Shown here: positions 4,042-33,231 of the stretch, piece by piece
How positions within the stretch are numbered: the stretch's first letter is position 1
Layout: each line of letters opens with the position of its first letter
Virus record (IMG/VR): IMGVR_UViG_3300027581_000011
Location: 1 to 43,978 of that record
Origin: a virus
Taxonomy: Duplodnaviria; Caudoviricetes
DNA length: 43,978 nucleotides
Strand: one strand, 5' to 3'
Program-made: the position numbers and the translations under genes
The notes under the pieces: generated by a model
Told to the model about the DNA's origin: nothing
The model's database searches: none
The model's input: only the letters and a program-made list of their open reading frames with translations

Positions 4042-5724
4042 ATGGCAACAAGAATGCAACAGCGCAGAGGTACTGCAGCCCAATGGACGGCTGCCAACCC
4101 AATTCTCGCAGCAGGTGAAATCGGTTTTGAAACCGACACAAGTAAATTTAAGATGGGTAACGGATCCTCTACATGGTCAGCATTGACATATTTTGCAAAT
4201 GCAGCCGAACTAGCAGCAGTTATCGACGGCGCACCAGATCTGCTAAATACTCTCAATGAGTTAGCAGCAGCAATGGGAGATGACCCAGCATTTATCACAA
4301 ACCATACAACTGCAACAACAAATGTTCACGGTATTGCAAATACTGCACTACTATCAACAACAGCAGGAGTAAACTCAGCAATTGCTATTTCGGCAGAATC
4401 ATCATCACAAGACGCAACTACAAAAGCAAATGCAGCATTAACAAATGCCCTTGATGCAGTTACAACACACACCGCACTTCAAACAGGTGTTCATGGCATT
4501 GCAGACACAGCAGCACTTGCAACAAAGGCGTATGCAGACAATGCAGTAACAGTACACGACACAGACGAAACAAATGTTCATGGAATTGCAAATACTGCAC
4601 TTCTAGCACTTAAATCAGAAATTGAAGCACACAACACAGACGAAACAGGTGTTCATGGAATTGCAGATACTGCACTTCTAGCACTTAAATCAGATGTTGA
4701 AACAGCAAAATCTGATGTACTCACTTCAATTTCAACAGCAGTATCATCAATTACACAATCTTCCATAGGACTTGCTAACGTTGATAATACATCAGATGCA
4801 AATAAGCCAGTATCAACTGCAACAGGAACAGCAATTGCAACAGCAGTTTCTGATCACAATGCAGATACTAGCAATGTTCACGGTATTGCAGATACATCAG
4901 TTCTTGCAACACTAACAGATGTTACAAATGCTGTTAATGGTGCAGAGGTAGATCAGGCATCACTTGCTGGTGTAGGTATTGATTACAATGCAGTATCTGA
5001 AGCATTCGATCTTGACAACACATACATTACAACTGCTACACAAACAGCACTTGACCTAAAGGCTCCACTTGCTTCACCTACATTTACAGGAACAGTTTCT
5101 GGTATCACATCAACAATGGTTGGTCTTGGAAACGTAAATAATACAGCAGATGAATCAAAGCCAGTATCTACAGCACAGGCTTCAGCAATCGCAACTGCTA
5201 AGTCAGAAGCAATTGCAGAAGTTAATGCACTTCTAGTTGGTGCTCCAGCAGCCCTCAACACACTTGATGAACTTGCTGCAGCACTTGGTGATGACGCAAA
5301 CTTTGCATCAACAGTTACAACTAATTTAGCAGCAAAAGCACCTCTTGCTTCACCAACATTTACTGGTACAGTAACAGTTGCAGCAGCAGGAGTAGCATTT
5401 ACAGACGGTACACAAACAAAGGCTGGCGTACCTTCAATTACTAACATCCCAACTGCAATAGCAGCAGGAGCACACGCACTTGCAGCAGCACGGGCAGATC
5501 AGTTTATCCCATTAACTGGAGCAGTAGTTATTACTCTTCCTGCAACAGGATATTCAACTGGTCAGTCAATTGATTTCTACCAAGAGTCAGGAACTGGAGC
5601 ATCATTTGCTTCAACTAACTCAGTAGTGGGAACACCAGGACTTAAGTTTAGAACAACCAACTCAGTAGCAACAGCAATGAAGACTGCAGCAGGATGGTTG
5701 GTCTTCGGCGACTTATCAGCATAA
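4042..5724 (+). CDS. tail fibre protein with Mtd_N (major tropism determinant N-terminal)-like domain
   Basis: The N-terminus QRRGTAAQWTAANPILAAGEIGFETDT.KFK.G.G...W..L.Y matches the Mtd_N pattern. Also contains 5x VHGIA[ND]T, 2x GL.NV.NT.D..KPVSTA, 2x KAPLASPTFTGTV and 2x GAP..LNTL.ELAAA.GDD. Confidence 0.8.
   Translation: MATRMQQRRGTAAQWTAANPILAAGEIGFETDTSKFKMGNGSSTWSALTYFANAAELAAVIDGAPDLLNTLNELAAAMGDDPAFITNHTTATTNVHGIANTALLSTTAGVNSAIAISAESSSQDATTKANAALTNALDAVTTHTALQTGVHGIADTAALATKAYADNAVTVHDTDETNVHGIANTALLALKSEIEAHNTDETGVHGIADTALLALKSDVETAKSDVLTSISTAVSSITQSSIGLANVDNTSDANKPVSTATGTAIATAVSDHNADTSNVHGIADTSVLATLTDVTNAVNGAEVDQASLAGVGIDYNAVSEAFDLDNTYITTATQTALDLKAPLASPTFTGTVSGITSTMVGLGNVNNTADESKPVSTAQASAIATAKSEAIAEVNALLVGAPAALNTLDELAAALGDDANFASTVTTNLAAKAPLASPTFTGTVTVAAAGVAFTDGTQTKAGVPSITNIPTAIAAGAHALAAARADQFIPLTGAVVITLPATGYSTGQSIDFYQESGTGASFASTNSVVGTPGLKFRTTNSVATAMKTAAGWLVFGDLSA
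4555..4694 (+). repeat. near-perfect 75-bp tandem duplication within the fibre gene
   Basis: cac[g/a]acacagacgaaaca..tgttcatggaattgca[a/g]atactgcacttctagcacttaaatcaga occurs at 4555 and 4630. Confidence 0.85.
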
Positions 5725-5758: not shown

Positions 5759-7414
5759 ATGTCAAAGCAAGCAGGTAGAATGAGTCAGTCGGCAAACGAC
5801 TTTCTGGCTCCACTAGCACCAACAATTGGTACAGCAACAAATGTTGGAACTGGAAGGGCTTACAACAATGGTGCAGTTACAGTAACTTTTACTGCTAATA
5901 CAGATGGCGCACCAGCAACATCTTTTACAGCATCAGGATACTGCTCTGTACATGGTGTGACACACTCTGCAACTGGTTCATCTTCTCCAATAACAATCCA
6001 AGGCTTTGGCTCTGGAGTAGTCACAAATATAACAGTAACTGGAACAAACTCAGTAGGACAAGGCCCAGCATCTGCTGCATCTAACTCTGTAACAGTTACA
6101 ACTGTTCCTCAAGCACCAAGTGGTCTAAGTGCTACAGACACTGGAACAGGAAGACCATTTAATAATGGTGAAGCACGAATAAGTTTTACTACTCCAGCAA
6201 CTGGTGGATCAGATATTACTGGATATGGAATTCAATCAAATGATGGAGGTTATGCTACTTCTGGAAATTCAAATCCACTAAGTGCAGCAGGAATTGCATC
6301 AGGAACAACTTATTCTTTTAGAATTAACGCAACGAATGCAAATGGAACTTCTGATTATTCTGCTTTGTCTAATTCAGTAACATTGACAACAGTGCCCGCA
6401 ACACCTTCAGCACCAAGCGCATCATCTCCTTCAGCAGGAACAGATAGCGTATCTTGGTCAGCACCATCAAATGGTGGATCAGGAATTACATCTTACACTT
6501 GGGCATCTTCTGATGGAAAGTCTGGCAATGTTGGAACAGCAACATCAGCAAGCGTTGGACAAGAACAAGGAACAGAACAGACATACACTGTTTATGCAAC
6601 AAATGCTAATGGTAATTCTGCAACATCAGGTGCATCAGGATCTGTTACAACTGTATTTGCTGCATTCGGTGCATTTGGTGCCTTCGGTGCCTTCTCTGCC
6701 TTTGGTGCGTTCGGTGCGTTCTCTGCCTTCGGTGCCTTCGGTGCATTCGGTGCGTTCTCTGCATTCGGTGCCTTCGGTGCATTCGGTGCGTTCTCTGCAT
6801 TCGGTGCATTTGGTGCCTTCGGTGCCTTCGGTGCATTTGGTGCATTCGGCGCATTCGGTGCCTTCGGTGCATTTGCTGCTTACGGTGGAGGATCTCGCTG
6901 GTACTCAGTTGGTCCAAACACTTTGATCTTAACAACAAACGGATATGTTCAAGCATCAGATCTTGAAGTAGGAGACACTCTTGTTTCAGCAGATGTTCCT
7001 GGATTAGGAATGTCATTTACAAAAGAAGAGATGGTAGCCTGGACAAATAATCCAGACAGTCTTGCAATTGTTCCAAACCAAACAACAACAGTTACGGCAG
7101 TTGGAGTATCAAATGCTTCAGTTGTTGTAATGATAGGAAATGAAACATACTCAGGAACTCACCATTTACTTGCAAAAAGAGATGGTCTTGCACAGATGAT
7201 TTTGTCTGCAAACCTTTTGACTACAGACAAGTTATGGTCTACACAGACAAATTCTTGGACTGATATAGTTGACCTAGTCATAACAGTCATGGATCATCAA
7301 GTTATTTCTGTTAACTGTGAACCTCTAGATATATTCTTTACAGAAAACTATCTAGTCTATGATGGATATCCTATAGATTCCCCATTGCCCGAACCAGAAC
7401 CTGCACCAGAATAA
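5759..7414 (+). CDS. Fn3 x3 - (AFG)n repeat - Hint domain protein
   Basis: Three fibronectin type III-like repeats (VP.AP...A....S.S[FW]..P..GGS.IT.Y...Y...ATNANG.S), then 24 AF[G/S/A] units. The C-terminal Hint-like region has SVGPNTLILTTNG..ASDLEVGD, SGTHHL and VNCEPLDIFFTENYLVYD. Confidence 0.8.
   Translation: MSKQAGRMSQSANDFLAPLAPTIGTATNVGTGRAYNNGAVTVTFTANTDGAPATSFTASGYCSVHGVTHSATGSSSPITIQGFGSGVVTNITVTGTNSVGQGPASAASNSVTVTTVPQAPSGLSATDTGTGRPFNNGEARISFTTPATGGSDITGYGIQSNDGGYATSGNSNPLSAAGIASGTTYSFRINATNANGTSDYSALSNSVTLTTVPATPSAPSASSPSAGTDSVSWSAPSNGGSGITSYTWASSDGKSGNVGTATSASVGQEQGTEQTYTVYATNANGNSATSGASGSVTTVFAAFGAFGAFGAFSAFGAFGAFSAFGAFGAFGAFSAFGAFGAFGAFSAFGAFGAFGAFGAFGAFGAFGAFGAFAAYGGGSRWYSVGPNTLILTTNGYVQASDLEVGDTLVSADVPGLGMSFTKEEMVAWTNNPDSLAIVPNQTTTVTAVGVSNASVVVMIGNETYSGTHHLLAKRDGLAQMILSANLLTTDKLWSTQTNSWTDIVDLVITVMDHQVISVNCEPLDIFFTENYLVYDGYPIDSPLPEPEPAPE
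6653..6886 (+). repeat. 9-bp coding tandem repeat GCNTTYGGT (24 core units at 6662-6877 plus degenerate VFA and AYG flanks)
   Basis: Read directly: 19 AFG, 4 AFS and 1 AFA unit, with synonymous variation GCA/GCC/GCG and TTC/TTT. Confidence 0.97.
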
Positions 7415-7444
7415 TATTTTAACATAATGCTAAAGCATTTGTTG

Positions 7445-7453
7445 TGATATAAT
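7445..7453 (+). promoter_or_regulatory. extended -10 promoter TGATATAAT
   Basis: Exact motif 13 nt before ATG 7467. Confidence 0.6.
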
Positions 7454-7466
7454 TATAGGTAATAGA

Positions 7467-8189
7467 ATGGGAATTATGAATACTATTAAATTTCTTCAGA
7501 TGTATCCTCAATTGTTGAGTATTGTTCCAGAACCAGAACAGAGCACAAAAAATGTTCCTACATGGTATAAAGATCAGCCAGCAATTTCGGGAAGTGAGAT
7601 TCCTGATAGAGGGATTATGAGGCTTACTGTAAAAAAATGTCAAGCCTTTTTTGACGCTATGGCAATGGGATATATTTTAAAAGTTCCATGCGATATATAC
7701 ATAGATACAACTGACGGCAATTTAAATATTCAACTTCCTGCGGGGGTGAGCAAGTATCACTCAATGCTTATAAGTGAGCATTCAGAAGAGCAGGTTTCTC
7801 ACTTACCTATAGATAAAGAAATCTATTGTAGTAAAATTTTAAGAATTCACCCTACCTGGATGGTACAAACCGATGAAGGTTACAGTACACTATTTACAAA
7901 CCCAATGCACCAAAGTCCAACACCTTTAAAGGCAATCGATGCTGTTGTTGACACTGATAACTATTTTACTGATGGTCATCTATCCTTTTTGGTAAAAAAG
8001 AATTTTAAGGGAACATTAAAGCAAGGAACACCAATGTCTCAAATTTTTCCATTTAAAAGAGAAGAATGGACAATGGAATTAGTTAACAACTTCCCACCAA
8101 AAAAAATAGAAGAACAACGGAATAAAGTTAGATCTACTTTTCAAAATGGTTATAGATTAAAGTTTTGGCAAAAGAAAACCTTTAAGTAA
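7467..8189 (+). CDS. DUF6065-like conserved phage protein (possible dUTPase-like fold), function unknown
   Basis: Motifs P.WYK, TVKKC..FFDAM..GY, W...T..GYS.LF.NP, VVDTD.Y and GTP..QI.PFKRE.W are recognisable from a family common in aquatic phages. Confidence 0.55.
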   Translation: MGIMNTIKFLQMYPQLLSIVPEPEQSTKNVPTWYKDQPAISGSEIPDRGIMRLTVKKCQAFFDAMAMGYILKVPCDIYIDTTDGNLNIQLPAGVSKYHSMLISEHSEEQVSHLPIDKEIYCSKILRIHPTWMVQTDEGYSTLFTNPMHQSPTPLKAIDAVVDTDNYFTDGHLSFLVKKNFKGTLKQGTPMSQIFPFKREEWTMELVNNFPPKKIEEQRNKVRSTFQNGYRLKFWQKKTFK

Positions 8190-8279: not shown

Positions 8280-10313
8280 ATGTCAGATTTTTTTAGTTTT
8301 AAACTTCCAGAGGACTTCGTAGAAAAATACAAGAACCAAGAAAGCCCATTTGGGTTTAAGGATGCAGCAGAAAATTCACTTGGAGAAATTACTTTTATTC
8401 GTACATATTCTCGCATGAAGGAAGATGGAACTAAAGAAAGATGGCACGAGGTTTGTCGTCGTGTAATCGAGGGAATGTATTCAGTTCAAAAGAATCACGC
8501 TAAAGAAAATCGTTTACCTTGGAATGACTACAAGGCACAGAAGTCTGCACAAGAAGCATTCCAAAGAATGTTTGAATTAAAGTGGACACCACCAGGTCGA
8601 GGTATGTGGGCCTTTGGAACTCCTATGACTATGGAGAAGAAGAACTCTGCAGCACTACAAAACTGTGCAATGGTATCTACAAAAGACCTTGATAAGAATG
8701 ATCCAGGAGCATTATTTGCTTGGGTTATGGATGCTCTTATGCTTGGTATTGGTGTAGGGTTTGATACAGTGGGACAGGATAAGAATTTCTCAATCTATGC
8801 CCCAACAGAGCCCGAACAGGTGTTCGAAATCCCAGACACTCGTGAAGGCTGGGTAGAGTCAGTTAGACTTCTAATCAACTCTTACCTTAGAGCAAACCAA
8901 AGTATTCAGAAGTTTAACTATGATTTGATTAGACCCCTAGGAGCCCCTATTAAGGGCTTTGGAGGCGTTGCATCAGGACCTGCACCTCTTATCAAGTTGC
9001 ACGACCATATAGACCGTGTAATCGGCTCCAGAGCGGGTGAAACACTAGACTCTCGTGCTATCGTAGACCTTGTAAACCTTATTGGTACCTGTGTGGTATC
9101 AGGAAATGTTCGACGCTCAGCAACACTTGCTTTGGGAAATGCAGGGGATGAAACATTTATGAACCTAAAGAATTCAGAACTATTCCCAGAGCGTAACTCA
9201 TTTGACCCAGATAATCCAGGATGGGCTTGGATGTCTAATAATTCTATTTCAGCAGAAGTAGGAACAAAGTACGAAGACTATGTAGATTTAATTACGGAAA
9301 ACGGAGAACCAGGTTTTATCTGGCTTGATGTTGCTCGTAATTATGGCAGGCTAAAGGATGCGCCAGATGGAAAAGACTATCGTGTGATGGGCTTTAACCC
9401 CTGTGCGGAGCAGCCATTAGAGTCATACGAATTATGTACACTTGTAGAAGTGCACTTAAATCGTCATGAATCTAAGGAGGACTTCCTGCGTACCCTGAAG
9501 TTTGCATACCTATATGGAAAGACTGTGACACTTGTTCCAACACACTGGCCACAAACAAACGGTATTATGCAACGTAATCGACGTATTGGCACATCCCTTA
9601 CTGGTATTGCATCATTTGCAGATCAAAAAGGTTTGCCAATTGTTCGTGAATGGATGGATGAAGGCTATAATAAGATTCGTCATTACGATCACAAGTATTC
9701 AGAGTGGCTATGTGTTCGTGAATCAATTCGTGTAACAACAGTTAAGCCATCAGGATCAGTCTCAATTCTTTCTGGTGCAACTCCTGGAGTTCACTGGGGA
9801 CCTGGAGGAGAGTTCTTCCTTCGTGCCGTTCGTTTTGGAAATACAGACCCAATGATTCATTTGTTCAAAGCAGCAGGGTATACAATTGAAGACGATGTAG
9901 TATCAGCAAACACATCAGTAGTTTACTTCCCAATCAAGTCAGGTCACCCAAGATCTGAAAAGGATGTAACATTATTTGAAAAGATTGCCCTTGCTGCAAC
10001 TGCTCAAAAGTATTGGTCTGACAATGGTGTTTCTGTAACATTATCATTTGATAAAGAAACAGAGTCAAAGCACATTGTTCCAGCACTCAACATGTACGAG
10101 GGACAACTAAAGGCTGTTTCATTCCTACCAATGGGCAATACAGTTTATCCACAGCAACCATACACAGGTATTACTGAAGAGCAATATGAGTCCTATATTG
10201 GTAAATTAAAGCACATTGATTTTGCTGCTATTTATGATGGAGCAGAAAATCTTGAGGCTCAAGGAGAGATGTACTGCACTACAGATTATTGTGAAATCAA
10301 AATAAACAAGTAG
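8280..10313 (+). CDS. nrdJ: class II (adenosylcobalamin-dependent) ribonucleotide reductase, monomeric RTPR type
   Basis: RTYSR, PPGRG.W, NCA, GNVRRSA, NPCAEQPL (thiyl radical Cys), ELCTL, TTVKPSG, DNGVSVT and a C-terminal redox pair CTTDYC. No intein is apparent. Confidence 0.93.
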   Translation: MSDFFSFKLPEDFVEKYKNQESPFGFKDAAENSLGEITFIRTYSRMKEDGTKERWHEVCRRVIEGMYSVQKNHAKENRLPWNDYKAQKSAQEAFQRMFELKWTPPGRGMWAFGTPMTMEKKNSAALQNCAMVSTKDLDKNDPGALFAWVMDALMLGIGVGFDTVGQDKNFSIYAPTEPEQVFEIPDTREGWVESVRLLINSYLRANQSIQKFNYDLIRPLGAPIKGFGGVASGPAPLIKLHDHIDRVIGSRAGETLDSRAIVDLVNLIGTCVVSGNVRRSATLALGNAGDETFMNLKNSELFPERNSFDPDNPGWAWMSNNSISAEVGTKYEDYVDLITENGEPGFIWLDVARNYGRLKDAPDGKDYRVMGFNPCAEQPLESYELCTLVEVHLNRHESKEDFLRTLKFAYLYGKTVTLVPTHWPQTNGIMQRNRRIGTSLTGIASFADQKGLPIVREWMDEGYNKIRHYDHKYSEWLCVRESIRVTTVKPSGSVSILSGATPGVHWGPGGEFFLRAVRFGNTDPMIHLFKAAGYTIEDDVVSANTSVVYFPIKSGHPRSEKDVTLFEKIALAATAQKYWSDNGVSVTLSFDKETESKHIVPALNMYEGQLKAVSFLPMGNTVYPQQPYTGITEEQYESYIGKLKHIDFAAIYDGAENLEAQGEMYCTTDYCEIKINK

Positions 10314-23510: not shown

Positions 23511-26500
23511 GTGGCTGATGTAAACTCCAATATTGGTATTAATTTTGATACCACAGCAGCACTCGCATCTCTTCGTAAACTTCAGGCTGGGTTAAGCACA
23601 TTTAATCAATCCCTAACTCAGGGTAACGTTGCAGCGATGAATGCCCAAAAGGGCCTAAATCAAAGTTTAATCCAGTCTATAAATGCAACTGGAAAGTTTG
23701 TCGCAAGTCAAAAAGAAATAGCAACAAGCACAGGATCTTTTACTCAGGCCCTTGAAAAAAATCAACTGTCAATGCGACAGTACTTTAGGTACACGGCAGC
23801 AGCAGCAACGGCCAATACTAAAGTCTTTAAAGGAATGTTTGCTCAAGAGCGTGAGATTATTAACCGTGCTCGTAAAGATAGAGTAAAACTTCTTCAGTCC
23901 CAGTATATTCAATTAGGCAATGCCAATGGTGACCTTGTCAAGGTTTTGCAGGTAGTTCCAAAGCACCTACAGATGGCCAATGGAAAGTACACAGACTATG
24001 CAACAAGAGTACAAATGGCTGCTCAGCGTCAGCAGTTCTTAAACCAATTACTAAAGCAAGGATCTACAAATCTTCTAAACTTTGGTAAGAATACTCAGTG
24101 GGCTGGTCGCCAGTTGATGGTTGGTTTGACAATACCTCTTTCTATCCTTGGGTCTGCAGCAGCAAAAACATTTTTAGAAATGGAACAAGCAGTTCTTAAG
24201 TTTCAAAGAGTATATGGAGATCTAACTACATCTGGAGATGCAACAAACAAAGCATTAAAAGATATACAGATGCTTGGAAAAGAATTTACAAAATATGGTA
24301 TAGCAGTAAAAGATACTGTTGAGATGGCTGCAACTGCTGCAGCAATGGGTTTGACAGGTGGTGCTTTAAATGCACAAGTAATCGCAGCAACAAGACTTGC
24401 TGTTCTTGGACAGGTTGAGCAGCAGCAAGCACTTGAGACAACTATATCTCTTCAAAATGCTTTCGGTATATCGTCAGAACAACTTGCACAAAAAATTAAT
24501 TTTCTTAACGCAGTAGAAAACCAGACTGTTCTTTCTATTGAAGACTTAACAATTGCAGTTCCAAAGGCTGGTCCAGTTATAAAGCAACTTGGTGGATCCG
24601 TAGAAGATCTTGCATTCTTTATGACTGCAATGAAAGAAGGTGGAATCAACGCATCAGAAGGTGCTAACGCACTTAAGTCTGGTCTTGCTTCTATGATTAA
24701 CCCTTCTAAAAAGTCAGCAGAATTTCTTGCCCAACTTGGAATTAACATAAAGGGTATTGTAAATAATAATGCTGGAGACCTTAAGGGTACTGTAGTTGGT
24801 TTTGCTAGAGCACTTGATACTCTAGACCCACTCAACCGTGCAAGAGCAATTGAACAACTATTTGGTAAGTTTCAGTTTGCACGTTTGTCTACCTTATTTC
24901 AAAACGTAACACAAGATTCTTCACAGGCTGCAAGAGCACTTGGTTTGGCAGGGGCATCAGTAGAAGAGTTGGCAATTTTATCTGAACGAGAATTAGCAAA
25001 GGTTGAAGACTCAACAGGTGCAAAGTTTAAGAAAGCAATGGAGAACATAAAGAATGAATTAGTTCCAGTTGGAAAAGCATTTCTAGAAGCAGTAACACCA
25101 ATTGTTTCTTCTGTAGGTAAAATATTAGAAAAGTTTAATGGCTTAAGTGATGGTACTAAAAAAGTAATAACAATAATGATTGGAGTAATTGGTGGTCTTG
25201 CTCCAATTGCACTTATGACATTTGGTATTCTTATGAACGGTGTAGCAAACGCCATAAAACTATTTGCAAAACTTCGTGGTGGAATTGCTCAACTTAACGG
25301 ACAAAACAATGTTCTTGGTGGAGGGTTTGACTATTTAACTAATCAGCAAACAGAATTACTTGCAGAAACAAACGCTCTTCATACATCTCATCAACAACTT
25401 CTTTCTACATTTAATGTTGAAAAAACTGCAGTTGATGCATTGGCCTTAGCATATGGAAATGCAGCCAGCCAAGCAAGAGCCCTTGCAAGTTCATCACCAG
25501 GGCTGTTTAACTCAGTCCCAGGACCAGCAGGGGCCGTAGCAGGGCTACCTCCTAAGAAGTTTGCAACAGGTGGAGTTGTTCCAGGCAGAGGTAATGGAGA
25601 TACAGTTCCAGCAATGCTTACCCCTGGAGAAGTTGTATTAACAAAAGAAGAGGCTAAAAATAATCCAACACTAATTGCAGCAATTCAAAATGGATCAGTA
25701 ATGAAGTACAACGGTGGAACTGGAAAATCACAAACTGCAGGTCAATCTTCTAAGGGAGTGGCGTTTGATGTTGGTGGTCAGCAACTTCGTTTAGCAATAA
25801 AGCCAGAATCAGAAAAAAATGTTACAGCAGTAACAAACCTTGTAAAAGCAATGCAAGATGGATCAATGGGTGTTGAAAATGGAGCAGACGTTCTTCAAGA
25901 AGTTTTTGCAAGATTAGCAAAGGAAGGAAAGGTAAAACTTGAAACCTTCCTTGCAGAATTAAGAATTGTAACAGAAGAAATGAGTGGTGTCACTTTAGCA
26001 TCTAATCAAATTAATGAGGCATCAGGTTTTACAGGCAAGGATAAGATTGCGGGTCACTCAGCAGGAGAATCTGAAGGAGGAGGCAGCAGTGTAAGAGATG
26101 ATATGTACGCAGCAGGTCGTGGTGCAGAATATGAAAGAATGCAAAAAATTGCCAATGAGTCTGGAGATAGAATAGATCAAGTTCCTGGTATGAAGCCACT
26201 TCAAAGACCAGATGCAGATCCATCAAAGGGTAAAAAGGGAAATGTTCAGTTAGACAGAGGCCATATTGCTTCTCCTGGTGCAACAGCAAAATCAGTTTCT
26301 GAAGGATGGGACCCAGACTTGTGGGATATCTCAACCCACTCAGAAAATGAACTATCTGAAATGCTTGCGCCTAAGCAAAATGAAGACGGCACAGAAAAAG
26401 CAAATGCAGCAAGAGATCTTTATTTTAAAAAATTAGAGGCACTTGAAGCAAAAAAAGAAGCAACAACAGAACAAATAAATTCTATAAAAGAAAAAATTCT

Positions 26501-29500
26501 TGTTAATGGAGCATTGAACGAAGAAGAACTTCAGATCCAGGCAAGAGTCCTTCAATCAATGTTGGATGACACAGAGTTTATGGCTAAAGAAACAACAGGA
26601 AAGAAAGGCAACAAAGGAACTGTTGCAACCCCTGGATTTAAAAGAGCAGCAACAGCAACAATTTTTGATGCTGAAGGCCGAGCAAAATATCCTAAAACAG
26701 ACATTGCAGATCCAAGATCTAAAGAAGAGCGTGTTGCTTCTGGAATGGCAAAAGTTGAAAAAAGAAAAGGAAAGTTTAATGAAGACGGTGGCGATAGTTT
26801 TGTCCCACTATCAGAAGCCGAAAAGAAAGCAAGGCTTGATTCAATCACAGTTGCTAAAGATGTAGACGCAGATCTTACTGCTGCAGAAAAGAAAGCAGAG
26901 ACAGCATCACCATCAAGACGAACTAAGCGTCTTGGAAAAGACATTGCAGATGGTCTTGCACAAGGAATAGAAGAAGGAACTCCTGGAGTCAAAACAAAGT
27001 CTTCACAACTTACTGATGCAGCACTACCATCAGCAGCAGAAACACAAGCAAGAGTTGGCAAGATGGATCTTGGAAACAAGGCATTCTATGATGACATTAA
27101 TACACCAGAGATGCGTGATGAAAGACAAGTTCTTAAGTCTTTAGATAGACAAAGAAGAAAGCGTGGGGCTAAGGGTTCTGTAGAACTTCCAGCAGATAAA
27201 TCATCAGTCAAGTCTAAAGTTCGTTTAGCAAAGAAAACACAAGTACAAAGTCAAGAGATTGCCAAGGAAACAGAAAATGTAGCAAAATCAACTGTTCTTG
27301 TTGCAGAAGAAACAGATGAATTTGCAAATGTAACTCAGGCTGCGGTAGATGCTCAAACAACAAATACATCAAATTTGATCACCACTAACCAACTAACCGA
27401 TGCAGCAAATAACAATCTTGGTCAGATGCTTCCAGCAATGGACAAAGCAGGAGTTGCCCAACAAGATCTTGCAGATTCTTCGGCAAATATTGCAAAGACA
27501 AATGATCAAATAGACGCAGAAAAGAAAGAACAGTTAGCACAACTAAAATCATATAACGCTCAAGAGGCTGCACGTATGGCAGCAGAAAATGGAATTGTTC
27601 CACCAGGAAGTCAGACAGGGAATGAAGAGTTAGGCAAAAACAGAATGGGATCTGTTGCTGCATATGAAGAAGCGTCTACTTATACCAGAGATAAAAATGG
27701 AAAAATACTGTTTGATCCAGAGCGAGATGCAAATGGCAAGAAGCAACCAACAACTCTTTCAGCAAAACAAATTAAACAAAAGAAACGTGGCATGCGTAGA
27801 GAGAAGGTTGGTAGGACTTCTGGAAAGGTGTCAGGAGGGCTTGGAACTGCAGCAATGGTTGCGGGTATGGCAGGAGCACCACCAGCAGTTACAGCAGCCC
27901 TTGGAGGCGCAGCAACAGTAGCACAGTTTGCTCCAATGCTTGCTGGTCTTACTGGTCCACAAGGCATTGCTGCTGCAGTTGTTGCAGTAGGAGCAAGCCT
28001 TTATTTATTAAATAGACACTTCACTGCATCTGCCAGAGCACAAGCAAAATTTGTAAAAGATATAACCGCAACAACAGATAAGATGAAAAAAATTGGTGAG
28101 TTTACTGGCACAGTTGGTGCATCTGAGATCATGGCAAAAAGAGCAGAGGCTGGCTTTAGTGGTGGATATATCCCAAGAGAAAGAAAGGGACAAGAATTTG
28201 GAATTACTTTTTCTGAGGGAGAAGTTGGAAAGCAGATGGCTGCATCCTTTGTTACCAGCATGGAAAAGTTTGGATCAAAAGAGGCAGCAAAGATATTTGG
28301 TTTGGAGTTAGCAGCATATGTAGCAGACGGAGTTTTGACTGCAGAACAAGCACAAGGAATAGCCTTTGCAATTGGATCAAAGTTTAAAGATCAAAACATA
28401 ATGGTTGATATAGAGGCCCAACTCAGTAATGTAATCGGAATGAATGGGGAAGACCTATCAAGAGATCCACTAGAACTCAGATTAAGACTTGTCTCAGAAG
28501 GAAATAGGCAGGTACAAAGAGAAATTGATGCCATGATGGATAAGGCAGACAACACAACCGTATCTGGTGCAGATGAAGCAGCACGAGTAGCAGGGTTCCA
28601 ACTAAATGCAATAACCCTTGCACAATTAGCAGCAGACTCTATGGCAAAATATTATGAGGATGAAAAGAAAGTTTTGGAAACACAACTTGCTGCAACAGCA
28701 AATAAAGAAGAACAAGTAAAGATTCAAACAAAACTAAGTAATTTAATTCAAGAGTCTTCAGATTCACAACAAATTGTAAATGACCAGATGCTACAACAGA
28801 TAAATAGTGCTATTGCTCAGTTTGATTCTAAAATTAGAACTAATAACGTTGGCATGTTTAGTGACAAGGCAAGAAGAGAAAATGCTTATTTTGATTCATT
28901 AAAGCAGTCTGTTACATCTGCATATGCTGGAACTGGTATGGAAAAAGACGCACAAACACTTATAAGCAGAACATCAAAAATATCTGATACCGCATACAGA
29001 CAAGGATTTGATAACACTGGTGGAAAAACCGCTTATGATAAAGGTCAAAATCTTGAAGTAAAAATTAATATGCTTGTGGCAAACAAGTTAATTTCACCAA
29101 TGCAAGCAAATGCATTTTTAGATTTATTTGAAGGAAACCTTCCTGACCTAGAGACTACCCTAGATGTAGGAATTCAATCAAGGGGTGCTGCCAAGACATC
29201 AGAACTACTAGGAATAATGACTAGGTTTGAAGATAAAGATTCTGCCAGAAAGATGGCAATGAATATAACCATGGAAGATAATGAGACGTTTGATAGGCTT
29301 ACAAATATTCTTGGTCTAGCAAATATGCTAGACGGTAAAGAAATTGATATTGATATTATGTTTGGTGGAGTTGAAGGAGAGTCAAGACTAAAAGTTTTAG
29401 ATGAGCAATTCCTTGCACTAACCAATAATGTAGATGCTCTTGCAGACAAAGAGATAACAACAGACTTCTTGGTTAATTTTGATCAAAACTATGGAACAGA

Positions 29501-32500
29501 TGTATCTAAGGCTGACTTAGATTTTATTAAAAAAGAATTTGCAGGGGATAAAAAAGGTCAAGTAAATGCATTAAGAACATATGAAATAATCTCTCAATAT
29601 GTAAATAGTATGGAGTTTGATAGCCCAGAAGCAGAAGAAATGTTTAAGCAAGAAGCAGAAAGAAGACTTGTTGAAGGATACAGGACTAGAGCAGATAAAA
29701 GTCAAACTTTTGATGAGTATCGTAATGTTAATTATGCACTTTTGCTTGATGAGGCAAAGAGTGATTTCTTACTAGATAAAGATGGATTTATTCAAACTAG
29801 GTTTAAGGCTGTAATTGGAACTACTCCAAAGATAAATGCTAATGATGGTGGTAACGGTCCTGGTGACGGTGGAAAAGAAAAGAAGGACCCTCTAGAGTTC
29901 CTTGACTCACTTGCAATGAGAATTAAGAATGTTCGTGATGGAGCATTTGATGCAACAAAGCCATTACAGTCTATGCTTGCTGCTTTTAGTAATCCAAAAG
30001 TAAAGAAAGACATGGCTACTGCATTTAAGGTGTTTGATGGTCTGCAACAAAGAATGATTGGTATGAAGGTTCCAAAAGAATTTAGAGATATGATCGCTTC
30101 TATGTCTTCTGAAGACTTTAAGGAACTAGCAAACCTTAAGGGTAATAAGGCTATCTTTAAGTTTAAGAAAGATAAAAATGGAAAAGCCTTGCCAAGAACA
30201 AAGGCAAATATTGAGGCTCTTACCGACACTGGTAAAAAAATGATGAAGACATACAATGAGGCTATAGTTGGAGAAGGCAACGTTGTTAATAGAGAAGTAG
30301 TAGAACAAATTTCTAATCAAGAAAAGGCATTTAAGATTTTGATTTCAGAAGGTGCAACTGCAACAGAAGCCCTAGAGCATGTTCAGGATGCAGCCCTTGC
30401 TGCAGCAATTGCATCAGGTGCTCTTGGCAAAGAAGGAAGTGCAGAAAGAAAGCAATATATTGCAGATCTTAAAAAGGCTGCTGACGAAACAGAAAGGTTT
30501 GCCCTTCGTCAAAAAATGATTACAGCAAATGAAGAGTTTAAACTTCTTGAGCAAATGCCAAAACTTGGAAGCGCAATGAAACTTGCAGGATTCTCTGCAG
30601 ACCAAATGCAAGAAGTGTTAAATGATCCAGCACTTGCAAAGAGTTTAATTGAAGATCTTAAAGATGGAAAGGTTGACTCTAAGGAAATAGCAGACTACCT
30701 AAACTCTATTGAGGCTAGAAAGATTATTGATATCCAAGTAAACTATAACTCTGGAAAATTCTCTGAGTCTGCCCAGCCTGGTATGGACCTTGTAGATGAG
30801 ATGTTCTCTGTTCAAGAAAGCATGCTAAGAACTGGTGCTGATCCAAAAACAAACGGTATGGTTAAGACATTGCAGGCTAATGAAGAAAAGTTAATAGACC
30901 TAGAGTTAGCAGCCAAGCCAATTAGAAAAGAAATCGAATTGCTTAATCGTGAGATTAGGAACATAGAGCAAGAGATTGAGAAGAATTACACAAGACCTAT
31001 AGAAGGATTACAAGAAGAGATTAGCGACCTAGAACGAACACTAGAAATAGATCCAAAATTTGGTGATCGTGCTATGGAAGCAATCAATAAGCAAAATGCT
31101 AAGATGTCAAATGATGCTGCAATCATGGCGAACCAAGCAGAAACAATTAATGATAAATATGACAAGCAGGCAGAGGCTCTTGCTAAGGTTGCAGAAATAA
31201 ATGAAGATATTTTAAATCAGCAAAAGAGCCAACTTGATATTGCAGGTGCTTTAACTAGCGGAGACATTTCAGCAGCAGCCAAGGCAGCACAAGAAGCCCG
31301 TGCACAGTCAGCACAAAGATTTAGTGGTTCTTTATCTCAAGCATTAGACCAATCCAGAGCAAATGAAATTGATGGGCTTAGAGGAGCAGAGACTGGCTTC
31401 TCTCAAAAAGAGATTGATCAAAAGCAGTTTGAAAATGCTCAAGCACTTTACAAAATGGAGAACGATCCAGCACGACTTAAGATTGTTTCAGATATCAGAG
31501 ATAAGCAAGATCAGATTTACAAACTAGAAGAGTTGCGTGAAAAGAAACTTGCCGATATTCAAATAAAACAAGATCTCATTCTTAAAAAACAAATAGAGCA
31601 ACTTCAACCACTAGAAGATCAGATTGCAGACATTACATATTCAAATGAACTGATACAGGCACAGATAGATAAGTATGTCAAGGGCATAGAAGTTCTAGGA
31701 AAAACCCAATCAGAGTGGGATGCAGTCAAGGCTAAGATTGACGCAAACACACTTGCAGGTAAAAACTTTGATGCCCAACTTGGAGCATTGCTTGCTTCAA
31801 CAGATGCAATTGACAAGAAGTGGCAAAGCATTCTTGATAAGTTGGCAGCATATAATGGAATACCACAGGGAGTAATTGACGCCAAGACCCAGGTTGAACA
31901 AAATGGTGCATCAGCAGATGCACAAGTAGCAGCAGATAAAGCAGCAGCCGATGCAGTCATAATTGCAGCACTAGATAAAGCAATAACAGGAAAAGATGAT
32001 GGATCTCCAACAGCATCTGCCAATGCTGTTGTATCTAGCACAGTACCAACACCAGTTAAGGCACCAGTAAAAACAGCAGTAACTGTCAAGTCTGGAGACA
32101 CACTTTCTAGCATTGCAAAAGCAAACAAGACAACTGTGGCAGCACTGCAGGCTGCAAATCCTGTATTAATGAGTAATCCAAAATATAATGATGGAAAAAC
32201 AATATTCTCAGGAACAAAAATTACAATCCCTGCTCCTAAAGCACCAAGTGTTGGTGGTGGTGGCGGATCAAGCAGTATGATGTTTAAGTCTAAGGGTGGA
32301 CTTATACCTAGGTATTTTGCTAGAGGAGGATTTGCAAGAGGAACAGATACTGTCCCAGCGATGCTAACTCCAGGAGAGTTTATTGTTAGCAAGTATGGTG
32401 TAGATTCTTACGGTGCAGATAATCTTAAAAAGATAAATAACGGAGATGCACCTGTCGGAGCAGTGTATAATAATACATATACGCTAACTGTTAACGCAAA

Positions 32501-32600
32501 GACAAATGCTAATCCAAATGAAATTGCACAGGCAGTAATGTCAACAATTAGACAAGTTGACGACAGAAGAATTAGAGGGGTGTCATTAAATGGTCGATGA
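23511..32600 (+). CDS. tape measure protein (3029 aa) with C-terminal LysM domain
   Basis: TP901-type TMP core (AMKEGGINASEGANALKSGL, AIEQLFGK), hydrophobic segments, long coiled-coil regions, two DTVPAMLTPGE motifs and LysM (VKSGDTLSSIAKANKTTVAALQAANP...IFSGTKITIP, 32079-32231). Confidence 0.93.
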   Translation: MADVNSNIGINFDTTAALASLRKLQAGLSTFNQSLTQGNVAAMNAQKGLNQSLIQSINATGKFVASQKEIATSTGSFTQALEKNQLSMRQYFRYTAAAATANTKVFKGMFAQEREIINRARKDRVKLLQSQYIQLGNANGDLVKVLQVVPKHLQMANGKYTDYATRVQMAAQRQQFLNQLLKQGSTNLLNFGKNTQWAGRQLMVGLTIPLSILGSAAAKTFLEMEQAVLKFQRVYGDLTTSGDATNKALKDIQMLGKEFTKYGIAVKDTVEMAATAAAMGLTGGALNAQVIAATRLAVLGQVEQQQALETTISLQNAFGISSEQLAQKINFLNAVENQTVLSIEDLTIAVPKAGPVIKQLGGSVEDLAFFMTAMKEGGINASEGANALKSGLASMINPSKKSAEFLAQLGINIKGIVNNNAGDLKGTVVGFARALDTLDPLNRARAIEQLFGKFQFARLSTLFQNVTQDSSQAARALGLAGASVEELAILSERELAKVEDSTGAKFKKAMENIKNELVPVGKAFLEAVTPIVSSVGKILEKFNGLSDGTKKVITIMIGVIGGLAPIALMTFGILMNGVANAIKLFAKLRGGIAQLNGQNNVLGGGFDYLTNQQTELLAETNALHTSHQQLLSTFNVEKTAVDALALAYGNAASQARALASSSPGLFNSVPGPAGAVAGLPPKKFATGGVVPGRGNGDTVPAMLTPGEVVLTKEEAKNNPTLIAAIQNGSVMKYNGGTGKSQTAGQSSKGVAFDVGGQQLRLAIKPESEKNVTAVTNLVKAMQDGSMGVENGADVLQEVFARLAKEGKVKLETFLAELRIVTEEMSGVTLASNQINEASGFTGKDKIAGHSAGESEGGGSSVRDDMYAAGRGAEYERMQKIANESGDRIDQVPGMKPLQRPDADPSKGKKGNVQLDRGHIASPGATAKSVSEGWDPDLWDISTHSENELSEMLAPKQNEDGTEKANAARDLYFKKLEALEAKKEATTEQINSIKEKILVNGALNEEELQIQARVLQSMLDDTEFMAKETTGKKGNKGTVATPGFKRAATATIFDAEGRAKYPKTDIADPRSKEERVASGMAKVEKRKGKFNEDGGDSFVPLSEAEKKARLDSITVAKDVDADLTAAEKKAETASPSRRTKRLGKDIADGLAQGIEEGTPGVKTKSSQLTDAALPSAAETQARVGKMDLGNKAFYDDINTPEMRDERQVLKSLDRQRRKRGAKGSVELPADKSSVKSKVRLAKKTQVQSQEIAKETENVAKSTVLVAEETDEFANVTQAAVDAQTTNTSNLITTNQLTDAANNNLGQMLPAMDKAGVAQQDLADSSANIAKTNDQIDAEKKEQLAQLKSYNAQEAARMAAENGIVPPGSQTGNEELGKNRMGSVAAYEEASTYTRDKNGKILFDPERDANGKKQPTTLSAKQIKQKKRGMRREKVGRTSGKVSGGLGTAAMVAGMAGAPPAVTAALGGAATVAQFAPMLAGLTGPQGIAAAVVAVGASLYLLNRHFTASARAQAKFVKDITATTDKMKKIGEFTGTVGASEIMAKRAEAGFSGGYIPRERKGQEFGITFSEGEVGKQMAASFVTSMEKFGSKEAAKIFGLELAAYVADGVLTAEQAQGIAFAIGSKFKDQNIMVDIEAQLSNVIGMNGEDLSRDPLELRLRLVSEGNRQVQREIDAMMDKADNTTVSGADEAARVAGFQLNAITLAQLAADSMAKYYEDEKKVLETQLAATANKEEQVKIQTKLSNLIQESSDSQQIVNDQMLQQINSAIAQFDSKIRTNNVGMFSDKARRENAYFDSLKQSVTSAYAGTGMEKDAQTLISRTSKISDTAYRQGFDNTGGKTAYDKGQNLEVKINMLVANKLISPMQANAFLDLFEGNLPDLETTLDVGIQSRGAAKTSELLGIMTRFEDKDSARKMAMNITMEDNETFDRLTNILGLANMLDGKEIDIDIMFGGVEGESRLKVLDEQFLALTNNVDALADKEITTDFLVNFDQNYGTDVSKADLDFIKKEFAGDKKGQVNALRTYEIISQYVNSMEFDSPEAEEMFKQEAERRLVEGYRTRADKSQTFDEYRNVNYALLLDEAKSDFLLDKDGFIQTRFKAVIGTTPKINANDGGNGPGDGGKEKKDPLEFLDSLAMRIKNVRDGAFDATKPLQSMLAAFSNPKVKKDMATAFKVFDGLQQRMIGMKVPKEFRDMIASMSSEDFKELANLKGNKAIFKFKKDKNGKALPRTKANIEALTDTGKKMMKTYNEAIVGEGNVVNREVVEQISNQEKAFKILISEGATATEALEHVQDAALAAAIASGALGKEGSAERKQYIADLKKAADETERFALRQKMITANEEFKLLEQMPKLGSAMKLAGFSADQMQEVLNDPALAKSLIEDLKDGKVDSKEIADYLNSIEARKIIDIQVNYNSGKFSESAQPGMDLVDEMFSVQESMLRTGADPKTNGMVKTLQANEEKLIDLELAAKPIRKEIELLNREIRNIEQEIEKNYTRPIEGLQEEISDLERTLEIDPKFGDRAMEAINKQNAKMSNDAAIMANQAETINDKYDKQAEALAKVAEINEDILNQQKSQLDIAGALTSGDISAAAKAAQEARAQSAQRFSGSLSQALDQSRANEIDGLRGAETGFSQKEIDQKQFENAQALYKMENDPARLKIVSDIRDKQDQIYKLEELREKKLADIQIKQDLILKKQIEQLQPLEDQIADITYSNELIQAQIDKYVKGIEVLGKTQSEWDAVKAKIDANTLAGKNFDAQLGALLASTDAIDKKWQSILDKLAAYNGIPQGVIDAKTQVEQNGASADAQVAADKAAADAVIIAALDKAITGKDDGSPTASANAVVSSTVPTPVKAPVKTAVTVKSGDTLSSIAKANKTTVAALQAANPVLMSNPKYNDGKTIFSGTKITIPAPKAPSVGGGGGSSSMMFKSKGGLIPRYFARGGFARGTDTVPAMLTPGEFIVSKYGVDSYGADNLKKINNGDAPVGAVYNNTYTLTVNAKTNANPNEIAQAVMSTIRQVDDRRIRGVSLNGR

Positions 32601-33231
32601 AGTAATAGATCCTAGAGTCACATATATGCTTGGCCGTAAAAAATATAGAAGACCAAGCGGTATGCTGTGGTCAGAAAATAGTGGCACACTGCAAAACGAA
32701 ATCTATGTACCTAATGGTCATGAGGTAGGGGCAGATCCGCTAGGAGTTGAAGACTCGTCACTAATAGATCAGTTCTTACTCATCACTGACGATAACAGAC
32801 AACCACTACAGTTTAAAAATGAAAGAATAGAAAAAAGAGAAAGAATGATTAATGGGCGAATGAGATCTTATCATATTGCTGACAAACTTACTTTAAGTAC
32901 TAGTTGGTCTCTAATTCCTTCTAGGTCTCACGAGGATGTTCCAACATTTGATACAGAAAGTGGCTCGTCTCCAAAAAAATCATATACAACAGATGGCGGA
33001 GCAGGTGGTGCTGATATGCTAGAGTGGTATGAAGCACACAAGGGATCTTTTTGGGTATTTCTTGCTTACGACAGAAAGGGTATATTTAAAGGACAGCCAG
33101 ATGCTTATGATAACCTACAGGAATACAACCAACTAATTGAAATGTTTATTAGTGACTTTTCTTACTCTGTTGAAAAACGAGGAAACAAGTTTGACTATTG
33201 GAATGTCTCAGTAATTTTGGAAGAAGTATAA
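32590..33231 (+). CDS. putative distal tail (Dit-like) protein
   Basis: Immediately after TMP; RERMINGRMRSYHIADK..LS.SW and a C-terminal WNVSV.LEEV pattern. Confidence 0.6.
   Translation: MVDEVIDPRVTYMLGRKKYRRPSGMLWSENSGTLQNEIYVPNGHEVGADPLGVEDSSLIDQFLLITDDNRQPLQFKNERIEKRERMINGRMRSYHIADKLTLSTSWSLIPSRSHEDVPTFDTESGSSPKKSYTTDGGAGGADMLEWYEAHKGSFWVFLAYDRKGIFKGQPDAYDNLQEYNQLIEMFISDFSYSVEKRGNKFDYWNVSVILEEV

What the first reader, a model, noticed from the sequence alone, without database searches (positions are those of the whole stretch)
5759..8189. Candidate new system: Fn3-(AFG)24-Hint self-processing virion protein paired with a DUF6065-like putative tailoring enzyme
Seen: the last gene of the fibre module encodes three Fn3-like domains, a pure tripeptide repeat, a GGGSRWY linker and a C-terminal Hint-like domain. 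The next gene is a conserved non-structural-looking protein. Known: Hint domains (Hedgehog, bacterial intein-like) perform an N-terminal acyl shift that cleaves the upstream polypeptide or ligates it to a nucleophile. Inference: processing would leave an Fn3 stalk ending in a ~75-aa Phe-rich repeat, possibly with a C-terminal adduct. The layout (carrier, repetitive core, self-cleaving domain, adjacent enzyme) resembles a RiPP-like precursor/maturase pair used on a phage appendage. I know of no characterised system with this architecture.
Basis: partly seen in the sequence, partly recalled or inferred. Interest (0 to 1): 0.88.

Follow-up and report, generated by a model that had tools for sequence, protein, structure and literature searches.

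The report
Phage fibre protein with self-cleaving cap
A freshwater phage encodes, at the end of its tail-fibre genes, a stalk protein with a phenylalanine-rich repeat capped by an unusual serine-type intein-like domain that likely cuts itself off, while the neighbouring gene is a dUTPase-shaped protein shared by many phages rather than a partner dedicated to this cap.

Summary
The anatomy is real. Gene 5759-7414 encodes three Fn3-like domains, 25 F-[G/S/A]-A tripeptides and a C-terminal Hint domain (model matches BIL, intein and Hedgehog structures, Z up to 16.6; Ser383 sits at position 1). The domain keeps the N-terminal cleavage residues (Ser1, Ser-x-x-His) but has Tyr-Asp-Gly where inteins have His-Asn-nucleophile, so it most likely cleaves at Y382|S383 and does not splice. 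Orthologues collected by their Fn3 domain end in Hint (44 of 56), stop after the repeat, carry a Cys-rich tail, or carry a split S74 chaperone: the cap looks interchangeable and removable. Gene 7467-8189 has a dUTPase fold with a conserved cysteine, like the protein noted in the cyanophage Syn9 oxygenase array in 2010. It follows Hint-bearing (28 of 37) and Hint-less (10 of 12) orthologues alike, and often occurs with neither, so a dedicated precursor/maturase pair is not supported. Relatives with Pro-rich repeats carry hydroxylase-like genes; this Pro-free phage has none beside it. No cleavage, adduct or virion location is shown. The scan found this family before on other DNA. Verdict: new variant of a known kind.

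The parts
5759..7414 (+). Fn3x3-(F-x-A)25-Hint protein, 551 aa, last gene of the fibre cluster
   Evidence: phrog_6977 minor tail protein, E 1e-8
5807..6655 (+). three Fn3-like domains (about aa 17-115, 116-212, 213-299), predicted stalk; limits approximate
   Evidence: Pfam fn3 on aa 136-203; third domain alignment A5; first by similarity
6656..6880 (+). 25 F-[G/S/A]-A tripeptides (19 FGA, 4 FSA, 2 FAA), aa 300-374, no proline
6881..6904 (+). linker aa 375-382; Y382 is the -1 residue and the predicted new C-terminus
6905..7363 (+). Hint domain aa 383-535: Ser383 (position 1), Ser465/His468 (block B7/B10), Ser517 (F4), Tyr534-Asp535 (G6-G7)
7364..7411 (+). 16-aa acidic Pro-rich C-terminal extension starting with Gly (+1, not a nucleophile); low model confidence
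7467..8189 (+). DUF6065-like protein, trimeric-dUTPase fold, conserved K56, C58, D63, D162, D164, G187, Q192
4042..5724 (+). context: upstream fibre gene with Mtd_N domain
   Evidence: E 2e-13
8280..10313 (+). context: class II ribonucleotide reductase, directly after the DUF gene; no oxygenase, GNAT or glycosyltransferase lies between

Best explanation
The 551-residue protein is a likely tail-appendage component whose C-terminal Hint domain likely cuts itself off at Tyr382|Ser383, which would leave an Fn3 stalk ending in the phenylalanine-rich repeat. Predicted steps: Ser383, helped by Ser465 and His468, attacks the preceding carbonyl (N-to-O acyl shift) and the ester is hydrolysed; no splicing follows because +1 is Gly and His-Asn is replaced by Tyr-Asp. 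The Hint domain would be a disposable cap that shields or helps fold the sticky repeat until assembly, one of several interchangeable ends (Cys-type Hint, Ser-type Hint, split S74 chaperone, Cys-rich tail, none). The dUTPase-fold neighbour is a general accessory of phage fibre-linked enzyme islands, here the only one left, probably acting through its conserved cysteine and a nucleotide-type pocket; it is not needed for the cleavage. Shown: folds, register, conservation, interchangeable ends, gene neighbourhoods. Inferred: cleavage, hydrolysis, virion location, cap function, any activity of the neighbour.
For: Fold and register: model residue 12 (S383) aligns with residue 1 of several inteins and with Hedgehog residue 258, residue 164 (D535) with the last intein residue. 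In 181 family domains position 1 is Ser 133, Cys 31, gap 14, other 3; B7 is Ser/Thr in 179, B10 His in 165. Ser1 uses both TCN (59) and AGY (4) codons among 63 rows; dN/dS of the domain is 0.16-0.29 against 9 of 10 relatives. These residues drive step 1 (PMC4031507, passages); BILs without a +1 nucleophile mainly cleave (PMC7664689, passages). Of 60 distinct orthologues fetched by Fn3 (best 80 of 445 loci), 4 are cut by contig ends; of 56 whole ones 44 end in Hint, 6 stop just after the repeat, 4 have a Cys-rich tail, 2 an S74 motif. In 5 of 5 loci tested the next gene is the rest of a Peptidase_S74 domain (E 1e-7 to 5e-6); S74 is a self-cleaving fibre chaperone (PMC10769870, PMC12143355, passages). 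Terminus type changes at least 32 times on a 122-row stalk tree.
Against: No cleavage data. F4 is Ser, not the usual Asp, and Ser1 is a weaker nucleophile than Cys (established chemistry), so the reaction may be slow or need a trigger. No intact fused S74 was seen: all are split in two ORFs, and several S74-motif ends have no second half within the fetched DNA, so they may be decaying remnants. Hint-less orthologues show that a cap is dispensable, which fits a removable cap but also an optional tip domain. The conserved terminal Asp (127 of 181) and the GNAT gene found after 32 of 63 Ser-type and 0 of 75 other rows are not explained by simple hydrolysis. Virion location rests on gene position and one PHROG hit.
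Confidence: 0.5

Rival explanations
1. Hedgehog-like ligation: the Ser383 ester is not hydrolysed but captured by a nucleophile (another virion protein, a host envelope component or a small molecule), so the stalk is covalently tagged or anchored at Y382.
For: Same fold and N-terminal machinery as Hog (Z 15.5); a distinct Ser1/F4-Ser/terminal-Asp signature runs through most of the family; a GNAT-like gene (Atlas 0.95) follows only Ser-type Hints, 32 of 63 against 0 of 75.
Against: No sterol-recognition-like region, only 16 residues follow the domain; orthologues that stop after the repeat cannot ligate; the GNAT link is not significant on independent tree pairs (median p 0.5) and this phage has no GNAT there.
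Confidence: 0.2
2. RiPP-like pair: the dUTPase-fold neighbour chemically modifies the F-G-A repeat or the new C-terminus.
For: The gene follows most Fn3-repeat orthologues (38 of 49); strong purifying selection (dN/dS 0.05-0.10) and near-invariant K56, C58, D63, D164 (223-225 of 226) suggest an active site; DUF distance tracks repeat composition (Spearman 0.73 over 37 loci); hydroxylase-like genes track proline content (0 of 22, 17 of 56, 54 of 60); such a protein sits among peptide-modifying enzymes in Syn9 (PMC2938197).
Against: Fold points to nucleotide binding. It accompanies FGA, YSFTP, FGFTP and PFFP repeats alike; FGA repeats sit beside versions 38-41% and 90% identical. 28 of 50 of its loci have no Fn3-repeat or Hint gene in the fetched DNA; in HF2 it lies by tail genes and RNR with only hypothetical neighbours. 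The correlation is confounded by adjacency and kinship; Hint~DUF p 0.5, Pro~hydroxylase p 0.25 on independent pairs. Phe, Gly and Ala offer little chemistry without an oxygenase.
Confidence: 0.12
3. The Ser-type Hint is retained: a slow or silent Hint fold reused as a globular tip or binding domain of the appendage.
For: Loss of Cys1, F4 Asp and His-Asn; dN/dS of the domain is higher than that of the neighbour; purifying selection shows function, not catalysis.
Against: Ser1, B7 and B10 are the best kept positions across domains only about 20-35% identical, and Ser is kept across both codon families.
Confidence: 0.15

Closest known systems
Bacterial intein-like (BIL) domains, types A and B; C. 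thermocellum BIL (PDB 2lwy), Tetrahymena BIL2 (6tmm/6y75)
   Same: Hint fold (best structural matches), no +1 nucleophile, sits in a hypervariable protein, predicted cleavage rather than splicing (PMC7664689, PMC7765530, passages).
   Different: Ser1, Ser-x-x-His, F4 Ser and Tyr-Asp end; not the His-Asn of A-type; in a phage fibre cluster behind a low-complexity repeat; Pfam Hint models score below cut-off.
Hedgehog C-terminal autoprocessing domain (1at0)
   Same: C-terminal Hint with only step 1 expected; S383 aligns with residue 258 (Z 15.5).
   Different: Ser instead of Cys, no F4 Asp, no sterol-recognition region; no adduct known.
Peptidase S74 intramolecular chaperone of phage fibres and Bdellovibrio MAT fibres
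   Same: C-terminal domain that cleaves before its own Ser and is interchangeable with other ends in fibre families (PMC10769870, PMC12143355, passages); split S74 occupies this slot in relatives.
   Different: Unrelated fold; S74 drives trimerisation, which is untested for this Hint.
dUTPase-fold protein with a conserved cysteine in the Synechococcus phage Syn9 dioxygenase array (Iyer et al. 2010, PMC2938197)
   Same: dUTPase fold, conserved Cys58, company of 2OG-Fe(II) oxygenases in relatives; weak match to Syn9 gp43 next to a halogenase (E 0.1, 83% covered).
   Different: Here it stands alone between the fibre gene and RNR. The paper proposed metabolite synthesis for the cyanophage array; identity with gp43 is my inference.
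Trimeric dUTPases / dCTP deaminases
   Same: Top 22 VIA rows have this fold (Z 8.9-5.1, best rmsd 3.8 over 130); an Asp-x-Asp and a Gly...Gln lie where motifs 3 and 4 would (motif positions recalled).
   Different: No Pfam dUTPase hit or PDB sequence hit; motifs 1, 2 and 5 not recognisable (recalled consensus); extra N-terminal K-x-C motif.

Membership tests
Hint superfamily | Hint fold | tested here: met
Hint superfamily | Cys/Ser at position 1 and Thr/Ser-x-x-His in block B | tested here: met
   S383, S465-x-x-H468
Hint superfamily | Autocatalytic N-terminal acyl shift | not testable with these tools
   needs expression
Class 1 intein | Cys/Ser/Thr at +1 and a C-extein to be joined | tested here: not met
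   +1 is Gly536, 16 residues follow
Class 1 intein | Terminal Asn, Gln or Asp, usually after His | tested here: inconclusive
   Asp535 is an allowed end (PMC7664689 passage) but the penultimate residue is Tyr and F13 is Asp
Class 3 intein | Cys at F4 (WCT motif) | tested here: not met
   F4 is Ser517 by sequence alignment; the conserved Cys lies three positions later
A-type BIL | C-terminal His-Asn | tested here: not met
   Tyr-Asp here; His-Asn only in Cys-type relatives
B-type BIL | Match to Pfam Hint_2 and B-type C-terminal motif | tested here: inconclusive
   Hint_2 E 0.066 on 27 residues, 14 bits against cut-off 28.4; motif not compared
Hedgehog Hog | Sterol-recognition region after Hint | tested here: not met
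   only a 16-aa tail
DUF6065 (PF19541) | Pfam gathering score | tested here: not met
   17.4 bits against 26.6; some homologues carry the family: a related subfamily
Trimeric dUTPase | Fold | tested here: met
Trimeric dUTPase | Five catalytic motifs | tested here: inconclusive
   D162/D164 and G187/Q192 conserved; others not recognisable; consensus recalled, no residue-level superposition seen
RiPP precursor/maturase pair | Dedicated co-occurrence of precursor and enzyme | tested here: not met
RiPP precursor/maturase pair | Enzyme-dependent modification of a core peptide | not testable with these tools
   needs co-expression and MS

The most novel reading that the evidence does not exclude
A cysteine-free, Ser/His/Asp Hint domain acts as a phage ligase: it holds the Fn3-(Phe-Gly-Ala)n appendage as a stable ester and transfers it to a host envelope acceptor or to a nucleotide-derived group supplied by the dUTPase-fold cysteine enzyme, the minimal core of a widespread phage fibre-tailoring system whose larger versions add hydroxylases, acetyltransferases and glycosyltransferases matched to each repeat.
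Probability: 0.12. Interest if true: 0.85.

Novelty: new variant of a known kind. Interest (0 to 1): 0.5.

Why it matters
If cleavage is confirmed, Hint domains join S74 as a second, unrelated self-removing cap of phage fibre proteins, and a large natural family of Ser1/terminal-Asp Hint domains (117 clusters at 50% identity scored E<=0.001; mostly this type) becomes available for studying cleavage without a cysteine nucleophile. This phage is the simplest test case of the fibre-linked enzyme islands: one repeat without proline and one accessory, so the function of the dUTPase-fold conserved-cysteine family, unexplained since 2010, can be probed with two genes.

Tried and rejected
Complex prediction (neighbour trimer with the repeat and junction) was not available; nothing was folded, so binding is untested. 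Class 3 intein reading rejected (F4 is Ser). Ordinary dUTPase serving the adjacent RNR considered unlikely: 1-3 paralogues per locus among oxygenases and motifs missing, but not excluded. 'Hint and DUF exchanged as one cassette against a fixed backbone' looked attractive (RNR 96-99% identical while Hint 19-32% and DUF 38-62%) but the gene after RNR is also only 44-57% identical in those loci, so RNR is a poor backbone marker; dropped. Word-index search with the Hint region found nothing; the Fn3 search returned long multi-Fn3 proteins and said nothing on termini. No Hint relative among annotated phages or in the genome collection (two patterns only). PDB sequence search with the DUF alignment gave 0. 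My first label 'degenerate DUF' for one neighbour family was not supported (hhalign 0.3%). NCBIfam HxsA4 hit on the repeat (20 bits against 55) is compositional. No promoter or terminator above chance. RNA-library contigs hold the stretch but do not show transcription. Independent-pair tests were mostly underpowered.

Full report
Setting. The window is part of a long-tailed phage: portal, prohead protease, capsid, tape measure, class II RNR, helicase, primase. The best capsid matches among annotated phages are Streptomyces phages at 41-42% and the DNA occurs in freshwater metagenomes, so an actinobacterial freshwater host is likely (inference). The finding covers the last gene of the fibre cluster, behind an Mtd_N fibre gene, and the one gene between it and RNR.

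Observation. The 551-aa protein has three Fn3-like domains, 25 F-x-A units (19 FGA, 4 FSA, 2 FAA; aa 300-374), an 8-residue linker and a 153-aa domain from S383 to D535. Pfam barely sees the last domain. A 76-row family alignment hits gp41-1 intein and BIL sequences, folds at pLDDT 88 and matches Hint structures: Foldseek best E 7.6e-8, VIA Z 16.6 for BIL2, 16.1 for 2lwy, 15.5 for Hedgehog. Aligned ranges put S383 at position 1 and D535 at the terminal Asn position.

Catalytic residues. In 181 family domains from my loci and the 117 representatives (near-duplicates included), position 1 is Ser 133, Cys 31, gap 14, other 3; B7 Ser/Thr 179; B10 His 165; last residue Asp 127, Asn 47. Cys-type members mostly end His-Asn near the protein end; Ser-type members mostly end x-Asp with F4 Ser. 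This protein is Ser-type: S383, S465-x-x-H468, S517, Y534-D535-G536. Ser1 is kept in both codon families and dN/dS is 0.16-0.29 against 9 of 10 relatives, 0.46 against a near-identical one. Reviews (passages of PMC4031507, PMC7664689, PMC7765530) assign position 1, B7, B10 and F4 to the first acyl shift and say that domains without a +1 nucleophile mainly cleave. I therefore predict cleavage at Y382|S383 without splicing. Against: F4 is not Asp, and nothing here shows activity.

What occupies this slot in relatives. To avoid selecting for Hint, I fetched loci with the third Fn3 (best 80 of 445). Of 60 distinct ends, including the window's own, 4 are cut by contig ends; of 56 whole ones 44 end in Hint, 6 stop right after the repeat, 4 end in a Cys-rich peptide and 2 in an S74 motif. 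A second set fetched with a Pro/Phe-repeat query (best 80 of 138) is mostly Hint-less. Where an S74 motif ends the protein, the next gene was the remainder of Peptidase_S74 in 5 of 5 loci sent to Pfam; other S74-motif ends had no such gene nearby, and no intact fusion was seen. S74 is a self-cleaving fibre chaperone, interchangeable with other ends in fibre families (passages of PMC10769870, PMC12143355). Terminus type changes at least 32 times on a FastTree of 122 stalks (mean 64 for shuffled labels). Repeats are FGA, FGFTP, FGFSP, YSFTP, PFFP and others. The constant is an aromatic low-complexity tract after the Fn3 stalk; the end is swappable. The lead that S74 or nothing replaces the Hint came from earlier scan notes and was tested here.

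The neighbour. The 240-aa protein folds at pLDDT 93.7. Foldseek gives no row at E<=0.001 but lists almost only dUTPases and dCTP deaminases; the top 22 VIA rows have that fold (Z 8.9-5.1). K56, C58, D63, G68, P146, D164, G187, Q192 and R198 are kept in 223-226 of 226 distinct homologues; dN/dS is 0.05-0.10. By recalled consensus only dUTPase motifs 3 and 4 are recognisable. Iyer et al. 2010 (PMC2938197, passages; supplement not seen) note a dUTPase-fold protein with a conserved cysteine in the Syn9 dioxygenase array, and tail-collar and collagen-like proteins beside bacterial oxygenase operons; the window's protein matches Syn9 gp43 weakly (E 0.1) and haloarchaeal virus proteins well (E to 1e-27).

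Linkage. In the Fn3-fetched set with about 4 kb downstream, the gene follows 28 of 37 Hint and 10 of 12 Hint-less orthologues (counted). In the pooled table of 138 rows (3.2 kb downstream) it follows 51 of 63 Ser-Hint, 14 of 15 Cys-Hint, 26 of 27 Cys-tail, 20 of 26 plain and 5 of 7 S74 rows. That table is biased upwards: many loci were fetched through this gene (other rows: 26/38, 8/9, 25/25, 19/25, 5/7), Hint rows whose start my pattern missed were dropped, among them at least seven without the gene, and one frameshifted locus (L129) counts twice. Conversely only 22 of 50 distinct loci fetched through the gene, with 4 kb or more upstream, hold an Fn3-repeat or Hint gene; a Hint gene elsewhere in those genomes is not excluded. 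So it is a frequent companion of the fibre protein but indifferent to the Hint and not confined to it.

Other co-variation. Hydroxylase-like genes follow 0 of 22 rows with under 5% Pro in the tract, 17 of 56 at 5-25% and 54 of 60 above 25%; a GNAT-like gene follows 32 of 63 Ser-Hint rows and 0 of 75 others; a 130-150-aa unknown follows 22 of 27 Cys-tail rows and 0 of 111 others. On independent tree pairs only the last reached p about 0.03; Pro~hydroxylase p 0.25, GNAT p 0.5, Hint~DUF p 0.5, with directions almost never opposed. A family-wide tailoring system is plausible, not shown; this phage has a Pro-free repeat and none of these enzymes at the locus.

Literature. Searches for Hint domains in phage fibres, DUF6065 and phage prolyl hydroxylases (listings only) found no description of this architecture; two phage papers opened mention Hint only for terminase inteins (passages). 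The library lacks most subscription papers.

Verdict. Observation confirmed; self-cleavage likely; dedicated precursor/maturase pair not supported. A Ser/Asp variant of a BIL-like domain used as a likely removable cap on a phage appendage, beside an already noted but uncharacterised dUTPase-fold family. The scan has met the same family in other genomes. New variant of a known kind, interest 0.5.

Noticed in passing
L342:2850-4015, L343:3563-4691, L350:3563-4670, L375:2358-3464, L300:324-1680: Peptidase S74 chaperone split in two ORFs: the catalytic-Ser motif ends the Fn3-repeat protein and the remainder is a separate 93-95-aa gene; L300 has a different split point. Possibly a trans-acting chaperone, possibly decay.
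   Followed up: partly
L310:609-1613, L313:3572-4528, L317:3572-5049 and others: Fn3-(PFFP)n proteins ending in a short Cys-rich peptide are followed by a 130-150-aa gene of no Pfam family in 22 of 27 rows and 0 of 111 others; the only pairing significant on tree pairs (p about 0.03). A better precursor/partner candidate than this finding.
   Followed up: partly
L045:6049-6555 and 31 other rows: GNAT-like gene follows only Ser-type Hint proteins; absent in the window.
   Followed up: partly
L157:4862-7510 and L150 (same contig): One phage contig carries two FGA-Hint proteins with similar Hint domains on different N-terminal parts; the second has VTP repeats and is followed in relatives by a hydroxylase-like and a GT61-cupin gene.
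   Followed up: partly
L129:2329-3640: Fn3-repeat and Hint parts lie in different frames; frameshift in the repeat, real or assembly error.
   Followed up: no
L159:1480-2385, L026:1088-2011: PF11397 (Skp1-type GlcNAc transferase) genes beside hydroxylase-like genes downstream of Hint proteins.
   Followed up: no
L219:4881-5765: Halovirus HF2 homologue of the dUTPase-fold gene lies between tail genes and ribonucleotide reductase, as in the window; a cultured system for testing it.
   Followed up: partly
window:10339-14058, 33198-37523, 23511-32600: A 1239-aa gene with no Pfam or PHROG hit follows RNR in most relatives; the 3029-aa tape measure carries a C-terminal LysM.
   Followed up: no
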